Source: an uncultured Flavobacteriales bacterium
GTDB taxonomy: Bacteria > Bacteroidota > Bacteroidia > Flavobacteriales > BACL11
Direction: 5' to 3'
DNA: 64,000 nt
Assembly (NCBI GenBank): GCA_905478765.1
Contig: CAJQJY010000003.1
Location: 10,488 to 74,487 of the forward strand
The notes below the pieces were generated by a model that saw only the letters and a program-made list of their open reading frames with translations, did not search any database and was not told the DNA's origin. The translations under genes were made by a program, and so were the position numbers. This document shows, piece by piece, positions 3,007-62,075 of this stretch (positions are counted from its first letter, which is position 1; each line of letters starts with the position of its first letter).

Positions 3007-3636
3007 ATGGATAAATCGACAAAATCATTAGTAGATAAAGGAGAAATGCTCCCATTAATGGAAGCTTTTTACACAGTACAAGGGGAAGGATATTTCTCAG
3101 GTACTGCAGCTTATTTTTTGCGAATTGGTGGTTGTGATGTTGGTTGCCATTGGTGTGATGTAAAAGAAAGTTGGAATGCTGATTTGCATCCTCCAACCAC
3201 CATTGCTGATATACTTAAGGGCATTGCTGAATACCCTGTGAATACAGTTGTAATTACAGGTGGGGAGCCTTTAATGTGGGACATGTCAAAACTTACTACT
3301 GCCTTAAAAAATGAAGGGTATAAGGTTCATTTAGAAACCTCTGGTGCTTATCCTTATAGTGGTGATTTTGATTGGGTGTGTTTATCTCCTAAAAAGATGC
3401 AAGCTCCTTTAGATGCAATAAAACCTCTTGCCAATGAGTTAAAAGTTATAGTGAATAATAAACATGACTTTATTTGGGCAGAGGAGCAAAGAGCTTTGCT
3501 AGATGATTGTAAGTTATATTTGCAAGCTGAGTGGAGTAAGCGTGAGCAAGTTATCCCAATGATTATTGATTTTGTAAAAGAAAATAAAGATTGGACAATA
3601 TCCTTGCAAAGCCATAAATACATGAATATACCTTAA
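3007..3636 (+). CDS. queE: 7-carboxy-7-deazaguanine synthase (radical SAM)
   Basis: Radical-SAM cluster motif CDVGCHWCD and QueE-like length. I prefer the ATG at 3007 over the track start at 2923 (TTG). The extra 28 residues are translated from the heptamer array, and a -7 box lies at 2995-3002. Confidence 0.8.
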   Translation: MDKSTKSLVDKGEMLPLMEAFYTVQGEGYFSGTAAYFLRIGGCDVGCHWCDVKESWNADLHPPTTIADILKGIAEYPVNTVVITGGEPLMWDMSKLTTALKNEGYKVHLETSGAYPYSGDFDWVCLSPKKMQAPLDAIKPLANELKVIVNNKHDFIWAEEQRALLDDCKLYLQAEWSKREQVIPMIIDFVKENKDWTISLQSHKYMNIP

Positions 3637-5246
3637 TGAGAATTTTTATTCTGTTATTATTTTTATTACCTACCATTTCCTTTGCACAAAAGAAGGATTA
3701 TAAAACATATGATAAAGCAGTAAAATATTATAATGAAGGAAATAATGAAAAAGCAAAGAAATTAGCTTTTAAATTACTTGATAAAAGTGCTGAGTGGAAC
3801 AAACCAAACTTATTGCTAGCAAGTATTTTTGCTTCTGAAAAAAACATTGAAAAAGCAGCTGAATTTTTGCTGAATGTGTATTCTGAGGATAATCCTGATG
3901 ATGTGAAAGGAATTGAGGTGGTCGCTGATTTATATTACACTAATGGCTATTACACTGATGCTCTTTACTATCTTGCAAGCACCTTAAATCATGGTGATGA
4001 TAATTATCAAATTGTTTCAATGGCTACTTCATTAAAAATGAAAAGTTGCAAGTTTGCAATTGAGGCAATTAAAAACCCAACTGATATTGAGTTTAATAAT
4101 ATTGGGGCACTTATTAATTCTGAGATGAGTGAGTATGTAAATGCTATTTCTGTTGATGGAGAGAAATTGCTGTTTACCAGAAGAATTGAAGCTAATAAAG
4201 AAAGAGATCAAGAAGACTTATTTCTATATGATATAAGCGAACAATCAGTAAGTTCATTACCTTTTAATACTGAATATAATGAGGGTGCAATTACGGTTTC
4301 TGCTGATGGTAGTATGTATGTATATACTGCTTGTGATAGAGTTAATTCTATTGGGGGTTGTGATTTATACATTAGGCAATATTCTGATGAAAATGGCTGG
4401 ACAAAGGAATATAATTTAGGTAAAAATGTGAATTCAAAAATGTGGGAATCACAAGCTTGTTTTTCTCCTGATGGAAAATATTTGTACTTTATAAGTAGTA
4501 GAAATGAAGGGGAGGGACAAGAAGATATTTGGCGATCAGAAATCACAAAAGAAGGTTTCTTAAAAGCAGAAAATCTAGGTAGTAGTATCAATACTTCTAA
4601 ATCAGAAATGTCTCCTTTTTTACACCCTGATAACTTAACACTTTACTTTGCATCAGAAGGGCATGTAGGTATGGGTAGTGATGATTTATTTCTAAGCAGA
4701 AGAACGAAAACTGATGAGCAATGGAATACTCCTAAAAACATGGGCTTTCCAATAAATACTCATAATTCTGAGAATTCCTTAATAGTTGCAAGTGATGGGA
4801 AAACTGCTTATTATACTTCTGATAAATCTGGACATGGGCAAGAAGATATTTTTGTTTTTGAGTTACCAAAACAGGTTCAAGCTGAACAGATTTCTAACTT
4901 AGAAAAAGAAATTATTTCTCAAAAAGCAGGAGAGGAGGTCGTCTTAAAAAATGTAAGTTTTGAATCTAATTCAGCTGAGATAAATTCATCATCATATATT
5001 GAGCTTGATAATCTTATTGACTACCTTATAAAGAACCCTAATCTTAAAATTGAAATACAAGGACATACTGATGATGTTGGTAGTGAATTTGACAATCAAA
5101 GACTATCAGAAAAAAGAGCCAAAGTAGTGTTTGAATATCTGAGTTCAAAAGTTGCAAATACTCTAATTTTTAAAGGTTATGGAGAGATTCAACCTTTAGG
5201 AGAAAATAAGGCAGAAAACAGAAGGTCTTCTTTTGTTATTCAATAA
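3636..5246 (+). CDS. OmpA family protein with TPR-like and TolB/PD40-type beta-propeller repeats
   Basis: Signal peptide. Repeated SPDGKYLYF / ASDGKTAYY type PD40 motifs. C-terminal OmpA/MotB peptidoglycan-binding domain (GHTDDVGSEFDNQRLSEKRA). Its start overlaps the queE stop (TAATG). Confidence 0.8.
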   Translation: MRIFILLLFLLPTISFAQKKDYKTYDKAVKYYNEGNNEKAKKLAFKLLDKSAEWNKPNLLLASIFASEKNIEKAAEFLLNVYSEDNPDDVKGIEVVADLYYTNGYYTDALYYLASTLNHGDDNYQIVSMATSLKMKSCKFAIEAIKNPTDIEFNNIGALINSEMSEYVNAISVDGEKLLFTRRIEANKERDQEDLFLYDISEQSVSSLPFNTEYNEGAITVSADGSMYVYTACDRVNSIGGCDLYIRQYSDENGWTKEYNLGKNVNSKMWESQACFSPDGKYLYFISSRNEGEGQEDIWRSEITKEGFLKAENLGSSINTSKSEMSPFLHPDNLTLYFASEGHVGMGSDDLFLSRRTKTDEQWNTPKNMGFPINTHNSENSLIVASDGKTAYYTSDKSGHGQEDIFVFELPKQVQAEQISNLEKEIISQKAGEEVVLKNVSFESNSAEINSSSYIELDNLIDYLIKNPNLKIEIQGHTDDVGSEFDNQRLSEKRAKVVFEYLSSKVANTLIFKGYGEIQPLGENKAENRRSSFVIQ

Positions 5247-6729
5247 AAATATCCTTCTTGCATTTTGGCTGTTCACTTCCCCTCCAGTTAAATCCTTTTA
5301 AGTAGCGGTTCTTTTCTTCTACATCTTGGTAAGGTGTAGTTACTGAGTTGGGTTTTACTTCATAGTTTACAGCATCTAATTTACTGTCCTTAAAATAGAG
5401 TATTAAATCAGTGCACTCAGTATAATTGAGTCCCATTTTATCTTTTGTCTCCTCATCAGTTACTATAAAAATACTTTGTCCGTTTCCTTCTACATCCATT
5501 CTCCTCATTTTATTATCATTAAAATAAGCAGTCATATTTTTCCCTTTTATCTGATTGTAATCCAAAGAATCTTCTTGTGCTATTATCATTGGGCTAGGGT
5601 GGAGGAACATCCTACTAATCTTTCCTTTGTTGGCTAAGAACTGTATGCTGTCAGCAGTTATTTGAAATTCACTACTCCATAATATTGGCTCTTTGTACAT
5701 CTCAACTACTGAGTCTGTAAAATTATAGGTTAATGAATCGCATTTCCCTTGAAAATCAGTTTTAAAGAACTTTACTTTATTGTAAGCGAGTACCTTTTTA
5801 TCTTCTATCTTCTGCTGAGAAACAAATTGCTTAGCATGCATAAATACGGTGTCCTCTTCAAACAGCAACTTTAACATAGGTTTTTCACTGATGATTACTT
5901 TTTCTTCTGCTTCAAAGTATTCAGCAATCTCTCCAGATACAGTCATGTTTTCAACTGTATCAATAAGCTCAACATTACTGAATGCTTTTCCGTATTGCTT
6001 ATTTTTATTATAGTATAGACTATCTCCTTTTAGAAGGTAGTTGTCAGTAGTTATGTAAGAATTTTTTCTGAACTGTGCTATGTTAGTTTTGGTATTGTAC
6101 CAACCGTTTTCACAATAAATAGTTTTGGTGTCCGAAATGATAAAGGAAGGACCAAAAAAGTAAGTAACCTCACTGTTAGAATTATAGTGCATATTATCAG
6201 TAATTATTTTGTAATCTTTAGCCAAAACAACTACTGAATCTTTAAAAAGAAACTTATGAATATTGGAATGATAAGCACCTCTTTTTGAATTGATAGTTTT
6301 TTTATTATCAATAATAGTTCCTTTGCTAGGATAGGAGGCAATATTCGTGCTTAAATTGTAAAATACTTGCTCGGTATTTAAGGTCATATGCTTGTCAATA
6401 AGCATTACATCTCCTTTTATGTCAGCTTTGTTCTCTTTCCCAAAATAAGTAAGCATCTCTCCTGTAAGGGTAATGCTATCTCCTTGGTTGATTTTAATTT
6501 TCCCAAAGGCTTCCATTTTATTTTCAGTAATATAATGGTAAGCTGAATCGCATGTCATTATTGCATCATTATGCTTAAAGGACACATTCCCAATTAAACG
6601 CCAATAATCAGGATGAATATTAGCATTAGCATAAGTATTGTCAGCATTTAATATTTCAATTCTTTTACTGTTCTGAGCAATAGTGCTGATACTCAGAAGA
6701 AGCAGTAAAATATGAAAAAGAAGTTTCAA
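5236..6729 (-). CDS. OstA-like (LptD N-terminal-like) secreted protein
   Basis: 497 aa with a signal peptide and repetitive beta-rich sequence typical of Bacteroidetes OstA-like proteins. The function call is tentative. Confidence 0.6.
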   Translation of the reverse strand: MKLLFHILLLLLSISTIAQNSKRIEILNADNTYANANIHPDYWRLIGNVSFKHNDAIMTCDSAYHYITENKMEAFGKIKINQGDSITLTGEMLTYFGKENKADIKGDVMLIDKHMTLNTEQVFYNLSTNIASYPSKGTIIDNKKTINSKRGAYHSNIHKFLFKDSVVVLAKDYKIITDNMHYNSNSEVTYFFGPSFIISDTKTIYCENGWYNTKTNIAQFRKNSYITTDNYLLKGDSLYYNKNKQYGKAFSNVELIDTVENMTVSGEIAEYFEAEEKVIISEKPMLKLLFEEDTVFMHAKQFVSQQKIEDKKVLAYNKVKFFKTDFQGKCDSLTYNFTDSVVEMYKEPILWSSEFQITADSIQFLANKGKISRMFLHPSPMIIAQEDSLDYNQIKGKNMTAYFNDNKMRRMDVEGNGQSIFIVTDEETKDKMGLNYTECTDLILYFKDSKLDAVNYEVKPNSVTTPYQDVEEKNRYLKGFNWRGSEQPKCKKDIFIE

Positions 6730-33895: not shown

Positions 33896-33918
33896 GATAT
33901 TTACAAAATCATTATGAA

Positions 33919-33945
33919 GGTGGTTAAAAACTATTTTAGAGTAGG
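33919..33945 (+). promoter_or_regulatory. Orphan copy of the conserved GAAAAC-N-TAGAGTAGG element
   Basis: GGTGGTTAAAAACTATTTTAGAGTAGG matches 21/27 positions of the copy at 35900-35928. The next 11 nt match the 34155 copy at 9/11. No gene start follows it. Confidence 0.5.
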
Positions 33946-34133
33946 TATTTATAAACTAAGTATTATTAGTTTAAGCTGTTGCATTATCTGTAATTGCTTG
34001 TAGCAAATGTATTGATTTTACAAATTATCATCAAGGACTAACTTTTTTATTTATCGAAATAAAATATATTATTAATTTTATTACTGTTATAAAAAGTTAT
34101 TAAAAAAATAGTTGTTAAGTGTTTTTTTATTTT

Positions 34134-34141
34134 TAAGTTTG
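34134..34141 (+). promoter_or_regulatory. Putative -7 promoter box
   Basis: TAAGTTTG matches TAnnTTTG, 63 nt upstream of the ATG at 34205. Confidence 0.4.
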
Positions 34142-34154
34142 TTGAGAATTAAAT

Positions 34155-34184
34155 GGGTTAGCTGAAAACCATAAATAGAGTAGG
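34155..34184 (+). promoter_or_regulatory. Conserved leader element, copy B
   Basis: GGGTTAGCTGAAAACCATAAATAGAGTAGG ends exactly 20 nt before the ATG at 34205. Confidence 0.55.
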
Positions 34185-34204
34185 CATTTATACAATAAAA
34201 TAAA

Positions 34205-35254
34205 ATGAAAAAAATTCTATATTTATTAGTGTTGTTAATAATTACATCATGCGGAACTACGAAAGTAGTGCCTGTTGTTGAAGAAGTAAAGGGTTGTAAA
34301 GATAAAAATGCTATAAATTACAATTCGCAAGCTACTATTAATGATGGTAGTTGTAAATATGATAAAGTTGTTACTGATTATAATATATCAGTAAATGATT
34401 TAATGACCCTAGAAAAGGGCATGACAAAAAATGAGGTTCTAGTTGTAACAAAATTATTCCCTTATGAAATCTATCATAATGTAGATAATTGTGAAATTCA
34501 TGTTTACAATTACAGTAATCTTTTAAGAGAATTTGAAGCCGATATTGAGCATAAAAAAGCTGGGTTAAAAACAGGGGAAGATGTCTATAGTAATGAAAGA
34601 AAGCAAGTTCTTCTATATTACAGAAATGGATTATTAGATAATATTATAACTGAGCAAGCAAAATCAGCTCTTGTAAATGATATTTTGTGCTTTAATGAAA
34701 CTATATTAAGCTCATGTTCTACTGATGAAACTTATATAAAGTGCTTAGGATGTACAGATAAAGAAGCTCTTAATTATAATGCTTTAGCTAATTTAGATGA
34801 TGAATCATGTAAATATCCAATTATTAAAGGGTGTACAGATTCAGAGGCTTTAAATTACAATAAAGATGCAGTGGAAGATAATGGTAGCTGCAATTACTGT
34901 CCATGTGATTACAAACCAAACCCTGATTATGATCCTATAAGAAATTGTGGTGAAAAATGTATTCCAGAATTCGATTTCATTTCAGGATGCATGGATGAAG
35001 GAGCTATAAACTATAATCCTGAAGCAACTAAGGATGACAAATCTTGTCAGTACTGTCCTTGTGATACCGAAAACTACTATTATGTCTTAAATAAAAATAA
35101 AAATTGTGAAGGTGATCCTTGTGTTAAAGTGCAAAGGGTAAAAGAGAAAGAGTTAGCTAAAGAGAAAGATTGTTCATTATGCGATTTTATAGATCTTAAT
35201 GGTAAAATTGCTATTGAAGTAAAAACAGAGGGTATAATAACTAATAACGAATAA
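34205..35254 (+). CDS. Cys-rich repeat lipoprotein of unknown function
   Basis: Lipobox LIITSC. Four copies of a 23-aa module GC.D..A.NYN..A..D..SC.Y, a central GMTKNEV (SmpA/OmlA/BamE-like) domain, and two CPCD...NC...C segments. Confidence 0.8.
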   Translation: MKKILYLLVLLIITSCGTTKVVPVVEEVKGCKDKNAINYNSQATINDGSCKYDKVVTDYNISVNDLMTLEKGMTKNEVLVVTKLFPYEIYHNVDNCEIHVYNYSNLLREFEADIEHKKAGLKTGEDVYSNERKQVLLYYRNGLLDNIITEQAKSALVNDILCFNETILSSCSTDETYIKCLGCTDKEALNYNALANLDDESCKYPIIKGCTDSEALNYNKDAVEDNGSCNYCPCDYKPNPDYDPIRNCGEKCIPEFDFISGCMDEGAINYNPEATKDDKSCQYCPCDTENYYYVLNKNKNCEGDPCVKVQRVKEKELAKEKDCSLCDFIDLNGKIAIEVKTEGIITNNE

Positions 35255-35264
35255 AATATAAATT

Positions 35265-35804
35265 ATGAATAAAATAAAAAATATATTAATATTTCTAGGT
35301 GTTTGTTTATGTACTCTTGCTAACGCTCAGAAAATACAGAAAGAACATTTCACAACAATTGATAAATTATTTTATGTTGAAATTGGAATGACTTCAACTG
35401 AAGTTCAATCTACACTAGGAGTAGATCCATTTGATTTTTATCAAAACCTTGCAGAAGGTGAAATGATTGTTGAATACAGGTATTTGCATAAAAAATTACA
35501 AATTAAATCGAAAGATAATAATTATGTAAAATCAAATGGAGAAGATTATTTTACTGATGCATCTTCCATCTATTGTACTTTTGATATGGATAAGAAGTTG
35601 ATAGCTTTTTATACTGATTCTGGCAATGAAAATAGTGAAGATGCTTATATTTGGGAAAACACTATTAAGCAAGTGAGTGCAAATCCAGATTGTAGTAATA
35701 CTTGTGTAATTGTAGTTGAAAAAAAGGATGCAGAATCTAAAGAATTAGTAGAAAAAACTGAAAAAACTGAATCTAAAAAGAAAAAGAAGCTTTTTGGAAA
35801 ATAG
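35265..35804 (+). CDS. Secreted protein, paralog of the central domain of the preceding lipoprotein
   Basis: Signal peptide. IGMTSTEVQSTLGVDPFDFY...GEDYF aligns with KGMTKNEVLVVTKLFPYEIY...GEDVY of the upstream protein. Lys-rich tail. Confidence 0.7.
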   Translation: MNKIKNILIFLGVCLCTLANAQKIQKEHFTTIDKLFYVEIGMTSTEVQSTLGVDPFDFYQNLAEGEMIVEYRYLHKKLQIKSKDNNYVKSNGEDYFTDASSIYCTFDMDKKLIAFYTDSGNENSEDAYIWENTIKQVSANPDCSNTCVIVVEKKDAESKELVEKTEKTESKKKKKLFGK

Positions 35805-35874
35805 TATTTGAACTTTAACATGTTAATATAAAGTTATTATACACTTAGTACTTTATATATCTCTACTAGTGTCT

Positions 35875-35882
35875 TATTTTTG
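35875..35882 (+). promoter_or_regulatory. Putative -7 promoter box
   Basis: TATTTTTG matches TAnnTTTG, 66 nt upstream of the ATG at 35949. Confidence 0.4.
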
Positions 35883-35899
35883 TGATTTTTAAGAATAAA

Positions 35900-35928
35900 G
35901 GGGAAGCCGAAAACCATTTTAGAGTAGG
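35900..35928 (+). promoter_or_regulatory. Conserved leader element, copy C
   Basis: GGGGAAGCCGAAAACCATTTTAGAGTAGG ends exactly 20 nt before the ATG at 35949. Confidence 0.55.
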
Positions 35929-35948
35929 TAAACTAAAAATCATTTATT

Positions 35949-36539
35949 ATGAAGAAAAATTTTACAATTTTATGTGCAATGCTACTAAGTGTAGGTGTAT
36001 TTGCACAAGCACAATTTGGAGCAACGGCAGGTCTTAATATGGCAAATGTAGTAGGAGAAGACATGGAAACTGACATGAAAATGGGTATGCATGTTGGAGT
36101 TTCTGCTGCCTTTGAATTGTCTGATGCTATGACTTTAAAAACTGGAGCGCTTTATTCTACTAAAGGAGCAGTAGACTCTGAAGATGGAATGAAGGTTTCC
36201 TGGAATTTATCTTACATAGAAATTCCGTTAAATCTTTCATTTACTATTTCTGATCAAATGTCTTTAATGGTAGGGCCATATATTGGCTTACTTATGGGTG
36301 CTGAAGTTGAGATATCTGGTACTGACGGATTATTTGATGGAACAATTGATATGAAAGACGATACAAACGCAATGGATTTTGGTGTAAATCTAGGTGCTGG
36401 ATTTGCAGTTACTGAGGCTATTTCTATTAATGCTGGATACCAAATGGGTTTGATGCCTATAGATAGTGAAGGAGATGGTGATGCAAAAAATTCAAATATT
36501 CATATTGGCCTTACTTATAATTTTGGTGGAGGTTATTAA
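35949..36539 (+). CDS. Small outer-membrane beta-barrel protein (porin/OMP_b-brl family)
   Basis: Signal peptide, alternating amphipathic beta strands, C-terminal ...IGLTYNFGGGY aromatic terminus. Confidence 0.8.
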   Translation: MKKNFTILCAMLLSVGVFAQAQFGATAGLNMANVVGEDMETDMKMGMHVGVSAAFELSDAMTLKTGALYSTKGAVDSEDGMKVSWNLSYIEIPLNLSFTISDQMSLMVGPYIGLLMGAEVEISGTDGLFDGTIDMKDDTNAMDFGVNLGAGFAVTEAISINAGYQMGLMPIDSEGDGDAKNSNIHIGLTYNFGGGY

Positions 36540-36560
36540 GAGTAGTAAATGATGTAATAT

Positions 36561-36592
36561 AAAAAAAACCGAGCAAATAGCTCGGTTTTTTT
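36561..36592 (+). terminator. Rho-independent terminator
   Basis: CCGAGC aaata GCTCGG hairpin, preceded by A8 and followed by T7. Confidence 0.85.
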
Positions 36593-36678
36593 ATGTTTAA
36601 AACCTAAATAAGAATTAATGTAAACTAATATGCTATTTTTATACTTTTGTATTTATCATAAAAAAATCTTTGCACTAA

Positions 36679-61607: not shown

Positions 61608-61880
61608 AAAACATTCTTTTTACTTAAGGATAGGATTATTTAGTAGTTGAGAACTGTGAAGAGTAGTTTCGTTTGTATTAAATAGTAAAACTAAAAAGTT
61701 CACTATGACATGTTATTTTCTGAGTTTATGCTCATTAGCCTTTAAGTTATGTTTATCAATTGTTAGTTTGGTTTACCGTTTTATCAGATAGTTTTTATCA
61801 GAAACCTAAGTATATGTTTTTTAAAAATAATTATAAACTAAGTATATTAAATACACATCAATTTATATATTTGCTCCAAG

Positions 61881-62035
61881 TTTAGTACACTATTTTAGTG
61901 TAAAAGGGAATGAGGTGTGAATCCTCAACTTTACCAGAAGCTGTAAAGTCCGTAAATTTTTGGAAACTACATTGCCACTGTTTTAGTTAATGGGAAGGCC
62001 TTTCCAAAAGGACCAAGTCAGAAGACCTGCTAAGC
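61881..62035 (+). promoter_or_regulatory. Cobalamin (B12) riboswitch
   Basis: AAAGGGAATGAGGTGTGAATCCTCA core, GCCACTG...GGGAAGGC, and a B12 box AAGTCAGAAGACCTGC at 62015-62030. About 45 nt upstream of a TonB-dependent receptor gene. Confidence 0.85.
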
Positions 62036-62075
62036 TAAAAAAACTGAATCGTTTCTGGATAAAACGGTAGGCAGA

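What the first reader, a model, noticed from the sequence alone, without database searches (positions are those of the whole stretch)
34155..35928. Conserved ~30-nt element at a fixed 20-nt distance from the start codons of two envelope genes
Copy B (34155-34184) reads GGGTTAGCTGAAAACCATAAATAGAGTAGG and copy C (35900-35928) reads GGGGAAGCCGAAAACCATTTTAGAGTAGG. They share 24 of 30 aligned positions, including invariant GAAAACCAT and TAGAGTAGG. Each ends exactly 20 nt before an ATG (34205 for the lipoprotein, 35949 for the beta-barrel OMP). Each begins 13-17 nt downstream of a TAnnTTTG -7 box (34134-34141 and 35875-35882). It should therefore be transcribed as part of a ~60-nt 5' UTR. I see no convincing hairpin. 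The distance from the ATG is too long for a Shine-Dalgarno role. The GAAAAC-to-GTAGG spacing does not fit a -35/-10 pair. Possible roles are a protein or sRNA binding site or a translational enhancer for envelope proteins.
Basis: partly seen in the sequence, partly recalled or inferred. Interest (0 to 1): 0.55.

Follow-up and report, generated by a model that had tools for sequence, protein, structure and literature searches.

The report
Known DUF805b RNA pseudoknot before genes
The two ~35-nt elements are real copies of a catalogued but functionally uncharacterised Bacteroidota leader RNA (Rfam DUF805b); my comparison shows it folds as a small pseudoknot about 21 nt upstream of start codons in hosts and their phages, so it most likely acts on translation initiation.

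Summary
Copy B (34151-34187) and copy C (35896-35931) match Rfam RF02914, the DUF805b RNA. B scores 43.2 bits, above the 35.6-bit threshold; C scores 34.1, just below. A third copy (33916-33948) is decayed.

A pattern scan found at least 120 genome loci, almost all Bacteroidota, and at least 120 viral loci. The element always lies on the sense strand. Its 3' end sits at a median of 22-23 nt (IQR 20-24) before an ATG, across a G-poor spacer.

All four P1 pairs covary. Loop GCC also pairs with tail GGC: 11 compensated double changes against 3 exceptions. This makes an H-type pseudoknot. The invariant GAA/AGUA carries the signature of a loop-E (bulged-G) module and is identical to one half of 5S rRNA loop E.

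Downstream genes are very diverse. In hosts they are small exported proteins, OMPs, lipoproteins and RiPP precursors. In phages they are cytoplasmic ParB-like proteins. The element is therefore not envelope-specific and is unlikely to be a metabolite riboswitch.

Best reading (about 0.5): a cis-acting fold at the upstream edge of the ribosome-binding region that tunes translation initiation through the 30S subunit or a protein. It is a known family with unknown function.

The parts
34134..34141 (+). TAAGTTTG, a Bacteroidota -7 promoter box for the copy B transcript. The predicted TSS is about 34146-34147.
   Evidence: Sequence. The 4-5 nt box-to-TSS spacing is from Baez et al. 2019 (PMC6847099). 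Function is inferred.
34151..34187 (+). DUF805b copy B, the whole element
   Evidence: Rfam RF02914, 43.2 bits against the 35.6-bit gathering threshold. Model R1 gives 48.0 bits.
34153..34156 (+). Copy B, P1 5' strand AUGG. It pairs with 34169-34172 (CCAU).
   Evidence: Rfam and R1 alignments. Family covariation in all four pairs.
34169..34172 (+). Copy B, P1 3' strand CCAU
34161..34163 (+). Copy B, pseudoknot P2 5' strand GCU. It pairs with 34183-34185 (GGC): G-C, C-G, U-G.
   Evidence: Compensatory changes at all three pairs elsewhere in the family.
34164..34166 (+). Copy B, invariant GAA. This is the proposed 5' strand of a bulged-G/loop-E module stacked on P2.
   Evidence: Invariant in all family members. 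The structural reading is inferred from the AGUA/GAA signature.
34179..34182 (+). Copy B, invariant AGUA. This is the proposed 3' strand of the bulged-G module.
   Evidence: As above. Identical to the 3' strand of 5S rRNA loop E.
34183..34185 (+). Copy B, pseudoknot P2 3' strand GGC
34186..34204 (+). Copy B, a 19-nt G-free A/U spacer (the ribosome-binding region) up to the ATG
   Evidence: The family spacer is G-poor with A enriched at -3, -6 and -11 to -13.
34205..35254 (+). 349-aa lipoprotein ORF, with no Pfam match, served by copy B
35265..35804 (+). 179-aa signal-peptide ORF starting 10 nt after the lipoprotein stop. It probably shares the lipoprotein transcript and has no motif of its own.
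35875..35882 (+). TATTTTTG, the -7 promoter box for the copy C transcript
   Evidence: The orthologous loci L253 and L256 have a -7 box at the same place.
35896..35931 (+). DUF805b copy C, the whole element
   Evidence: Rfam 34.1 bits, 1.5 bits below the gathering threshold. R1 gives 41.8 bits. The same element is present before OMP orthologues.
35898..35901 (+). Copy C, P1 5' strand AAGG. It pairs with 35914-35917 (CCAU), with one A-A mismatch at 35899/35916.
35914..35917 (+). Copy C, P1 3' strand CCAU
35906..35908 (+). Copy C, P2 5' strand GCC. It pairs with 35927-35929 (GGU): G-U, C-G, C-G.
35927..35929 (+). Copy C, P2 3' strand GGU
35930..35948 (+). Copy C, a 19-nt G-free spacer up to the ATG
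35949..36539 (+). 196-aa outer-membrane beta-barrel protein served by copy C
   Evidence: PF13505/PF13568
33916..33948 (+). Copy A, a decayed DUF805b copy. The loop GCCG is deleted, so P2 cannot form. No ORF lies at the usual distance.
   Evidence: R1 gives 13.2 bits and Rfam does not report it. It lies just after the SBP_bac_5 stop. In relatives the OMP gene follows SBP_bac_5 directly.

Best explanation
Copies B and C are members of the DUF805b RNA family (Rfam RF02914), a Bacteroidota-wide cis-acting element in mRNA leaders.

The RNA folds as a roughly 35-nt H-type pseudoknot with these parts:
- P1, 4-5 bp.
- A 4-nt L1.
- P2, in which loop GCC pairs with tail GGC. P2 appears to be extended by the invariant GAA/AGUA into a bulged-G (loop-E/sarcin-ricin-like) module.
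- A variable A-rich L3.

The 3' end of the fold is held about 21 nt upstream of the AUG. That is just outside the unstructured, A-rich, SD-less ribosome-binding region.

My preferred mechanism is that the folded knot is recognised at the 30S platform/mRNA-exit side. The partner would be the ribosome itself (for example bS1) or a still-unidentified RNA-binding protein. This sets the rate of translation initiation of the gene directly downstream. I cannot tell the sign of the effect (enhancer or repressor site).

Shown here: family identity, fold, spacing, orientation, taxonomic range and use by phages. Inferred: the bulged-G geometry, the partner and the effect on translation.
For: Identity:
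- Rfam hits in the window.
- Rfam's own model also scores my pattern hits from genomes and phages at 40-56 bits.

Reality and range:
76 of the 80 listed are named Bacteroidota, spread across its orders.
- At least 120 viral loci were found.

Fold, P1:
- Column counts mirror each other: A44/T44, C24/G25, G47/C46.
- All 4 pairs show double changes.
- None of 500 shuffles reaches the observed covariation score (0.521 against 0.158).
- Slid registers collapse to 0.11 or less.

Fold, P2:
- 100% of cells are paired in an alignment made by a model that does not know P2.
- Compensated variants: GUC..GAC x3, ACC/ACU..GGU x4, CCC..GGG x2 and GCU..AGC x2.
- There are 3 uncompensated cases.

Coupling to the start codon:
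- Distance from the motif end to the ATG has a median of 23 nt (IQR 21-24) in hosts and 22 nt (IQR 20-23) in phages.
- L3 length does not trade off against spacer length (r=+0.26), so the 3' strand is the anchored end.
- The spacer has 5% G or less and is A-enriched at -3, -6 and -11 to -13. These are the positive determinants of initiation in Flavobacterium johnsoniae, where the region -20 to +20 is kept unpaired (PMC6847099).

Not tied to the promoter:
- Few copies have a -7 box nearby, and many follow an upstream same-strand ORF within 50 nt.

Not tied to a gene function:
- 75 Pfam families occur among 125 host genes.
- Phage copies precede cytoplasmic ParB-like genes, 31 of 79.

Modular and dispensable:
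- OMP orthologues either carry the element (L253, L256) or have a plain leader of 24-28 nt between the -7 box and the ATG (L251, L255, L257).

The fold is weak on its own (-2.4 to -3.5 kcal/mol, z>0), as expected for a structure stabilised by a partner.
Against: - There are no experimental data of any kind. I found no functional study of DUF805b.
- The fixed spacing could simply mean that the element is always added in front of a standard-length leader, and says nothing about the sign of the effect.
- Some phage copies break the rule. They lie 106-117 nt from a small ORF behind two extra hairpins, or head what looks like a non-coding transcript. The knot can therefore work away from a start codon.
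- No partner is identified. The one candidate I could test indirectly (bL25) got no support.
- My hit set was collected with an exact pattern, so the invariance of GCYGAAAA and AGAGTAGG is partly imposed.
Confidence: 0.5

Rival explanations
1. It is a riboswitch. The small pseudoknot would be an aptamer for a ubiquitous ion, alarmone or second messenger, and ligand-dependent folding would change expression of the downstream gene.
For: - It has the size and topology of the smallest riboswitch aptamers: an H-type pseudoknot of about 35 nt with about 20 near-invariant nucleotides.
- The fold is marginal without a partner.
- The family comes from a riboswitch-hunting pipeline (PMC5737381).
Against: - The element matches only DUF805b; no riboswitch family scores even at E<=10.
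- Downstream genes share no metabolic theme and include phage ParB-like genes.
- There is no expression platform. The 19-22-nt spacer is unstructured and G-poor, there is no terminator, and nothing is complementary to the start region.
- L3 varies from 2 to 9 nt and L1 varies in sequence, which is unusual for a tight ligand pocket.
Confidence: 0.15
2. It is an mRNA stabiliser or processing boundary. The knot would block 5'-end-dependent or 5'-to-3' decay. Alternatively it would mark an RNase or self-cleavage site and leave a defined, protected 5' end in front of a standard leader, as a natural insulator.
For: - In the window and in L253/L256 the knot starts about 6-17 nt after the predicted TSS, so it is 5'-proximal.
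- Copies occur in intergenic spacers inside operons and in front of each of several tandem RiPP-precursor genes (L090, L091, L086, L003). There, differential stability of one cistron would be useful.
- Some phage copies lie far from any ATG.
Against: - A stabiliser does not need an IQR of 20-24 nt to the start codon.
- Sequence conservation of the loops is much higher than a mere roadblock would need.
- Only a minority of copies have a promoter immediately upstream.
- The thermodynamic stability is poor.
Confidence: 0.15
3. It mimics 5S rRNA loop E. Free ribosomal protein bL25 (Ctc) or another 5S-binding protein would bind the knot, coupling these genes to ribosome-assembly status.
For: - AGAGUAGG and the opposing CCGA are identical to the helix V/loop E strands of bacterial 5S rRNA, in the same pairing register. 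The register is C-G, C-G, G.A, A.U.
- AGAGTAGG occurs once in an E. coli rrn operon, in rrf.
- The 5S genes recovered from viral contigs (L244-L250, organism not established) read GCCGAUGGUACUG.../GGAAGAGUAGGU.
Against: - None of 80 Flavobacteriia rplY (bL25) loci carries the element upstream. The best hit was 14.8 bits, on the wrong strand. There is therefore no autoregulatory copy of the kind that r-protein mimics usually have.
- Only half of loop E is mimicked, because GAAAA replaces GAUGGUA. From my recollection of the E. coli L25-5S structures, that is not the half L25 mainly contacts.
- The AGUA/GAA signature is generic to bulged-G modules, so the identity may be convergent.
Confidence: 0.06
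4. It is a target site for a conserved trans-acting sRNA, or a long-range SD-like site for the 16S rRNA 3' tail.
For: - A conserved purine-rich 8-mer lies near many start codons.
- AGAG..GG could pair imperfectly with the Bacteroidia 16S 3' tail ...CCUUUCU (recalled from memory, not tested).
Against: - The tail GGC is used for intramolecular pairing, with compensatory changes. These would destroy pairing to a fixed trans RNA.
- The distance of 20-24 nt is far outside SD spacing.
- The Bacteroidia anti-SD is sequestered on the platform (PMC13000453).
- No candidate sRNA is known.
Confidence: 0.04
5. It is a DNA-level signal, either an alternative (ECF-type) sigma promoter or an operator.
For: It lies upstream of envelope genes. 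GGAAGC...AGTAGG could be read as two boxes.
Against: - The spacing between the two conserved blocks varies by 5 nt.
- Strand-specific Watson-Crick and G-U covariation in two helices points to RNA.
- Copy B lacks the GGAA.
- The element sits downstream of sigma-A type -7 boxes.
Confidence: 0.02

Closest known systems
DUF805b RNA motif (Rfam RF02914, clan CL00115; from the comparative-genomics survey of Weinberg et al. 2017, PMC5737381)
   Same: It is this family. The 35-nt consensus AAGGcGGAAgCCGAAAAgCCUuAAaAGAGUAGGcA is the same, as are the P1 hairpin, the Bacteroidota range and the position upstream of ORFs.
   Different: - The window genes are not DUF805 genes.
- The structure line that cmscan prints for the Rfam model shows only the hairpin. 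The pseudoknot, the bulged-G reading, the start-codon spacing and the abundance in phages come from my analysis.
- I could not check whether the original supplement already mentions them.
5S rRNA helix V/loop E and sarcin-ricin-type bulged-G modules
   Same: The AGUA/GAA signature flanked by C-G pairs is shared. The 3' strand AGAGUAGG and the 5' strand CCGA are identical to 5S rRNA.
   Different: - Only half of bacterial loop E is reproduced.
- The element sits in an mRNA pseudoknot, not a three-way-junction rRNA.
- The Rfam 5S model does not hit the element.
- The geometry is inferred, not shown.
Structured mRNA leaders that dock on the 30S platform, such as the E. coli rpsO (S15) pseudoknot, and pseudoknot ligands of protein S1 (from my own knowledge; PMC3858243 turned up in the search but I did not read it)
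   Same: In both cases a small pseudoknot lies immediately upstream of the initiation region and acts on initiation.
   Different: - Those leaders include the SD or AUG within the fold and each serves one operon.
- DUF805b leaves a free spacer of about 21 nt, precedes hundreds of unrelated genes, and occurs in a phylum that does not use SD pairing.
Smallest H-type pseudoknot riboswitches (preQ1-I, SAM-II; review PMC11625349 turned up in the search but I did not read it)
   Same: Size, topology and degree of conservation are similar.
   Different: - There is no coherent regulon.
- The ribosome-binding region is not sequestered.
- Loop lengths vary.
- The element matches no riboswitch family in Rfam, only DUF805b.
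Kozak-like A-rich initiation region of Bacteroidia (Baez et al. 2019, PMC6847099)
   Same: The spacer after the knot shows the same A-3, A-6 and A-11..-13 pattern and the same lack of G.
   Different: That signal is unstructured and present in most genes. DUF805b is an additional folded module placed just upstream of it in a subset of genes.

Membership tests
DUF805b RNA (Rfam RF02914) | Covariance-model score at or above the curated gathering threshold (35.6 bits), copy B | tested here: met
   43.2 bits, E=6.1e-9 over the whole window
DUF805b RNA (Rfam RF02914) | Covariance-model score at or above the gathering threshold, copy C | tested here: inconclusive
   34.1 bits, which is 1.5 bits short because of an A-A mismatch in P1 and a 1-nt shorter L3. 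E=7e-6 for the window. R1 gives 41.8 bits. Orthologous loci carry clear copies.
DUF805b RNA (Rfam RF02914) | A 4-bp hairpin with a 12-nt loop ending in GCCGAAAA, followed by an unpaired tail AGAGUAGG | tested here: met
   Alignments to the model. The stem covaries in 77 sequences.
DUF805b RNA (Rfam RF02914) | Host in the Bacteroidota | tested here: met
   The only taxon-named homologue of the OMP is from a Flavobacteriales MAG, and the closest contigs include Tara ocean metagenome samples. Promoter boxes are TAnnTTTG. 76 of 80 listed genome hits are Bacteroidota.
DUF805b RNA (Rfam RF02914) | Upstream of a DUF805-domain gene, the association that gave the name | tested here: not met
   The window genes have no PF05656. 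Only 2 of 125 downstream genes in my sample do, so in practice this is not a defining feature.
Riboswitch (small H-type pseudoknot class) | Regulon coherent with one ligand | tested here: not met
   75 Pfam families among 125 host genes, and phage ParB-like genes
Riboswitch (small H-type pseudoknot class) | Expression platform (terminator, or sequestration of the initiation region) | tested here: not met
   Unstructured G-poor spacer and no terminator-like site
Riboswitch (small H-type pseudoknot class) | Specific ligand binding | not testable with these tools
   Needs in-line probing or ITC
Shine-Dalgarno element | GGAGG-type complementarity to the anti-SD, 5-10 nt from the start codon | tested here: not met
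   There is no GGAGG. The element ends 20 nt from the ATG in the window and 20-24 nt (IQR) across the family.
Ribosomal-protein leader mimicking 5S rRNA loop E (bL25) | Sequence and structure mimicry of the rRNA site | tested here: inconclusive
   CCGA/AGAGUAGG is identical to 5S rRNA, but only half of loop E is covered.
Ribosomal-protein leader mimicking 5S rRNA loop E (bL25) | Present in the leader of the protein's own gene (autoregulation) | tested here: not met
   0 of 80 Flavobacteriia rplY loci
Two-box sigma-factor promoter | Fixed spacer (+/-1) between the conserved blocks, and no RNA-type covariation | tested here: not met
   The gap between blocks ranges over 5 nt. There is compensatory covariation in two helices.

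The most novel reading that the evidence does not exclude
DUF805b would be a structured, SD-independent ribosome-recruiting module of the Bacteroidota. A loop-E-bearing pseudoknot would dock on the 30S platform or bS1 about 21 nt upstream of the AUG and boost initiation. It would have spread modularly in front of genes needing high output (small secreted proteins, RiPP precursors, OMPs) and would have been copied by Bacteroidota phages to capture host ribosomes. Some phages may also express it as a decoy RNA.
Probability: 0.25. Interest if true: 0.8.

Novelty: new member of a known kind. Interest (0 to 1): 0.45.

Why it matters
Bacteroidota, including the dominant gut Bacteroides and marine Flavobacteriia, do not use Shine-Dalgarno pairing, so how individual mRNAs are given high or regulated initiation rates is an open question.

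A compact pseudoknot held at a fixed distance from the start codon is a concrete, testable candidate for such a signal. It is present across the phylum and in its phages.

If it works as an enhancer or a regulator site, it would also be a ready-made 35-nt part for expression engineering in Bacteroides and Flavobacterium. For genome annotation it marks true start codons of small ORFs, such as RiPP precursors, that gene callers often miss.

Tried and rejected
- Literature. Full-text searches for DUF805b, RF02914, the motif sequences, and Bacteroidetes pseudoknot/translation initiation found no functional study. The main text of the discovery paper does not discuss the motif and its supplement is not held. 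RF02913 turned out to be pemK, not DUF805.
- Thermodynamic folding. No structure scored better than shuffles. The structure rests on covariation only.
- Fixed promoter distance. It is not a family feature.
- Terminator scan around the locus. It found none.
- Other TAGAGTAGG sites in the window (13856, 58923, 31256). They lie inside ORFs and score poorly, so they are chance matches.
- bL25 hypothesis. No L25 gene lies in the fetched loci. I recovered the real F. johnsoniae bL25 sequence from PDB 7JIL and fetched 80 rplY loci. None carries the motif.
- Bacteroidota-specific 5S. I could only obtain 5S genes from host DNA in viral contigs and did not establish their organism. Their loop E 5' strand is the standard GAUGGUAC, so the mimic is no closer than it is to E. 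coli.
- Exact-match look-up of the window OMP. It is not on record.
- ECF or sigma-54 promoter readings. I rejected them on spacing and covariation.
Full report
**1. The observation**

- Each ends 20 nt before an ATG (34205 and 35949).
- Each begins 13-17 nt after a TAnnTTTG box (34134-34141 TAAGTTTG; 35875-35882 TATTTTTG).
- The downstream ORFs are a 349-aa lipoprotein with no Pfam match and a 196-aa OMP_b-brl protein.
- A 179-aa signal-peptide ORF follows the lipoprotein after 10 nt and has no element of its own.

**2. What it is**

Rfam identifies copy B (34152-34186) as RF02914, the DUF805b RNA. It scores 43.2 bits against a gathering score of 35.6. Copy C (35897-35930) scores 34.1 bits for the same family, with window-wide E-values of 6e-9 and 7e-6. 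The only other Rfam hit in the window above a family's gathering score is a cobalamin riboswitch at 61866-62048.

A third copy at 33916-33948, just after the SBP_bac_5 stop, is seen only by my own model at 13.2 bits. It has lost the loop GCCG.

DUF805b comes from the comparative-genomics survey of Weinberg et al. 2017 (PMC5737381). I found no paper that studies its function.

**3. The family at large**

- Of the 80 listed with titles, 76 are Bacteroidota.
- They span Bacteroidales, Flavobacteriales, Chitinophagales, Sphingobacteriales, Cytophagales, Saprospirales and Kapaibacteria.
- Three of the four others look like mis-binned contigs with the full element, and one is a chance match.

Rfam's own model scores a sample of these genome and phage hits at 40-56 bits. 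The refutation condition "only at this locus / local duplication" therefore fails.

**4. Structure**

The hairpin is thermodynamically negligible. MFE values are -2.4 to -3.5 kcal/mol and no better than shuffles. Comparative evidence is strong, however.

For P1:
- In 117 hits, the free nucleotide 5' of the loop mirrors the nucleotide 3' of GAAAA: A44/T44, C24/G25, G47/C46.
- The neighbouring pairs behave the same way.
- On a model-made alignment of 77 sequences, all four P1 pairs show double changes.
- The covariation score is 0.521 against 0.158 in shuffles (0 of 500 reach it), and 0.11 or less in slid registers.

For P2:
- I built a covariance model (R1) and searched the fetched loci for copies that depart from my search pattern.
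- Departures in the loop GCC are matched by departures in the tail GGC.
- The variants are GUC..GAC (three loci), ACC/ACU..GGU (four), CCC..GGG (two) and GCU..AGC (two), plus many G-U wobbles. Three cases are uncompensated.
- In alignment A3 every cell of these three pairs is a standard pair, although the model knows nothing of them.

The element is therefore an H-type pseudoknot with these parts:
- P1, 4-5 bp.
- L1, 4 nt (G-N-N-N).
- P2, 3 Watson-Crick pairs.
- L3, 2-9 nt and A-rich.

The invariant nucleotides next to P2 are G-A-A on the 5' strand and A-G-U-A on the 3' strand. This is the sequence signature of the bulged-G (sarcin-ricin/loop E) module: a sheared G.A, a reverse-Hoogsteen A.U, a bulged G and an A.A. 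This step rests on established RNA-motif knowledge and was not tested here.

The two strands, CCGA and AGAGUAGG, are identical to helix V/loop E of bacterial 5S rRNA in the same register.
- The E. coli rrf sequence was confirmed, and AGAGTAGG occurs only there in an rrn operon.
- 5S genes recovered from viral contigs, whose organism I did not establish, read the same on the 3' strand.

**5. Position**

The element is always on the sense strand, upstream of an ORF.
- The number of nucleotides between AGAGUAGG and the ATG has a median of 23 (IQR 21-24) in genomes and 22 (IQR 20-23) in viral contigs.
- 75% of genome pattern hits and 56% of viral pattern hits have an ATG-ORF of at least 40 aa at 17-29 nt.
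- Spacer length does not compensate for L3 length (r=+0.26), so the anchored end is the 3' strand of P2.
- The spacer is almost free of G and enriched in A at -3, -6 and -11 to -13.
- These are the determinants of efficient initiation measured in F. johnsoniae, where -20 to +20 is kept unpaired and the mean leader is 33 nt (PMC6847099).
- The knot thus ends just where the ribosome-binding region begins.

The relation to promoters is loose.
- Only 9 of 113 host hits have an exact -7 box 10-24 nt upstream.
- 20 of 120 lie within 50 nt of the stop of an upstream same-strand ORF.
- Several operons carry one copy per tandem small gene.

**6. Genes served**

The 125 host genes hit 75 Pfam families. 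Examples:
- DUF6520 x6.
- T9SS sorting domain x4.
- OMP_b-brl x3.
- DUF805 x2.
- Subtilases, lantibiotic dehydratase and others.
- Several RiPP or bacteriocin precursor families (TIGR04149, FlmA, lanthipeptide leader).

The proteins are short, with a median of 135 aa. Signal-peptide or transmembrane-like N-termini are enriched: 64% against 37% of neighbouring ORFs, odds ratio 3.0, p=6e-6.

In viral contigs, 31 of 79 downstream genes are ParB-like nuclease or partition proteins. The rest are mostly unknown cytoplasmic proteins. The envelope bias is thus a property of which host genes use the element, not of the element itself.

**7. The window locus in context**

The window comes from an uncultured Flavobacteriales lineage. 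The only taxon-named homologue of the OMP is from a Flavobacteriales MAG, and the closest contigs include Tara ocean metagenome samples.
- In the relatives L253, L255 and L256, SBP_bac_5 is followed directly by the OMP gene (in L253 and L254 within the same PKD-protein / SBP_bac_5 / OMP / next-gene arrangement).
- The lipoprotein plus 179-aa pair of the window (34205-35804), with its own promoter and copy B, therefore looks like an insertion.
- Copy A looks like a decayed leftover.

OMP orthologues at 70% and 59% identity (L253, L256) carry the element at the same place behind a -7 box. Those at 75%, 64% and 50% (L251, L255, L257) lack it and have a plain A-rich leader, with 24-28 nt between the -7 box and the ATG. 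The element is a gain-or-loss module added in front of a standard leader.

**8. Mechanism**

The facts that need explaining:
- A conserved tertiary fold with a protein- or RNA-recognition-type module.
- Marginal stability when alone.
- Strict orientation and spacing to the AUG, with an unstructured standard initiation region in between.
- No link to gene function.
- Restriction to a phylum whose ribosomes ignore SD sequences (PMC13000453).
- Adoption by that phylum's phages.

The simplest account is a cis-acting module recognised at the platform/mRNA-exit side of the initiating 30S subunit. The partner would be the ribosome itself (bS1 is the usual suspect for upstream contacts) or a bound protein. 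The module would set initiation frequency. I give this about 0.5 and cannot decide between activation and repression.

Rivals:
- A riboswitch for a global signal (0.15). It is weakened by the absence of a platform or regulon and by variable loops.
- A stabiliser, processing boundary or insulator (0.15). It fits the 5'-proximal and intra-operon copies and the phage copies far from any ATG, but not the tight spacing.
- A 5S loop-E mimic for bL25/Ctc (0.06). I tested this indirectly: none of 80 rplY loci carries the element.
- An sRNA or anti-SD target (0.04). It is contradicted by the compensated P2 changes.
- A DNA promoter (0.02). It is contradicted by variable box spacing and RNA-type covariation.

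**9. Novelty and verdict**

The kind is known (RF02914). The window adds two members and one relic.

As far as I can check, these points go beyond the model's printed structure:
- The pseudoknot.
- The loop-E reading.
- The start-codon spacing statistics.
- The abundance in phages, including arrangements that look like non-coding transcripts.

I could not read the original supplement, so I do not claim priority. Interest is moderate. The element is an orphan RNA with a plausible bearing on the open question of SD-independent initiation in Bacteroidota, but the finding itself is a rediscovery.

Noticed in passing
window 61866-62048 (+): Cobalamin riboswitch aptamer (RF00174), 91.2 bits.
   Followed up: no
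window 33916-33948 (+), and window 34205-35804: A decayed DUF805b copy that lacks the loop GCCG lies right after the SBP_bac_5 stop, with no ORF at the usual distance. In relatives (L253, L255, L256) the OMP gene follows SBP_bac_5 directly. The lipoprotein plus 179-aa gene pair, with its own promoter and copy B, therefore looks like an insertion.
   Followed up: partly
L001 (~3215-3309), L002 (~6231-6320), L003 (4439-4522, 4881-4964), L074 (3112-3200, 3543-3630): In Sphingobacteriales/Chitinophagales loci the ATG lies 48-62 nt after the knot. In between is a second conserved element, AAAGTTTTT followed by a hairpin CTTTTTG..AAAAG. It precedes small 'MAR(S/F/C)WY...' proteins and is not in Rfam.
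   Followed up: partly
L137 2886-3030, L154, L158, L161, L172 5955-6110 and about 20 similar viral loci: In large (60-108 kb) viral contigs, possibly crAss-like, DUF805b follows a near-consensus -7 box. It is followed by two hairpins, and a 47-51-aa ORF (MPYEKKN.../MYNEKKS...) starts only 106-117 nt later. This is an exception to the 21-nt rule.
   Followed up: partly
L127 (~4200-4400, - strand), L148, L177, L202, L204 (9440-9640), L220, L225: One viral family has a -7 box (TATCTTTG), then DUF805b, then about 100 nt of structured RNA, then a GC-rich hairpin GGGAGGTGGTG..CACCGCCTCCC. An ATG lies only 4 nt after the knot. It looks like a small non-coding transcript headed by the pseudoknot and may be a decoy for whatever binds it.
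   Followed up: no
L090 (216-1368), L091 (5689-6285), L086 (6797-7808), L003, L028, L030: Clusters of 2-5 DUF805b copies occur, one in front of each of several tandem small genes. Many of these encode double-glycine-leader RiPP or bacteriocin precursors of 47-63 aa. The element could serve as a marker for such easily missed ORFs.
   Followed up: partly
L244-L250 (viral contigs): 5S rRNA genes, and in L246 a run of 14 tRNA genes, lie in contigs classed as viral. They are probably host flanks or mis-binned host DNA.
   Followed up: no
window 36484-36618: Weak, sub-threshold Leu_leader-like hits on both strands (27-28 bits, E of 0.14-0.19) straddle the OMP stop (36539) and run into the spacer before pheT (36679). 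This is probably just a hairpin. The simple terminator scan found nothing there.
   Followed up: partly
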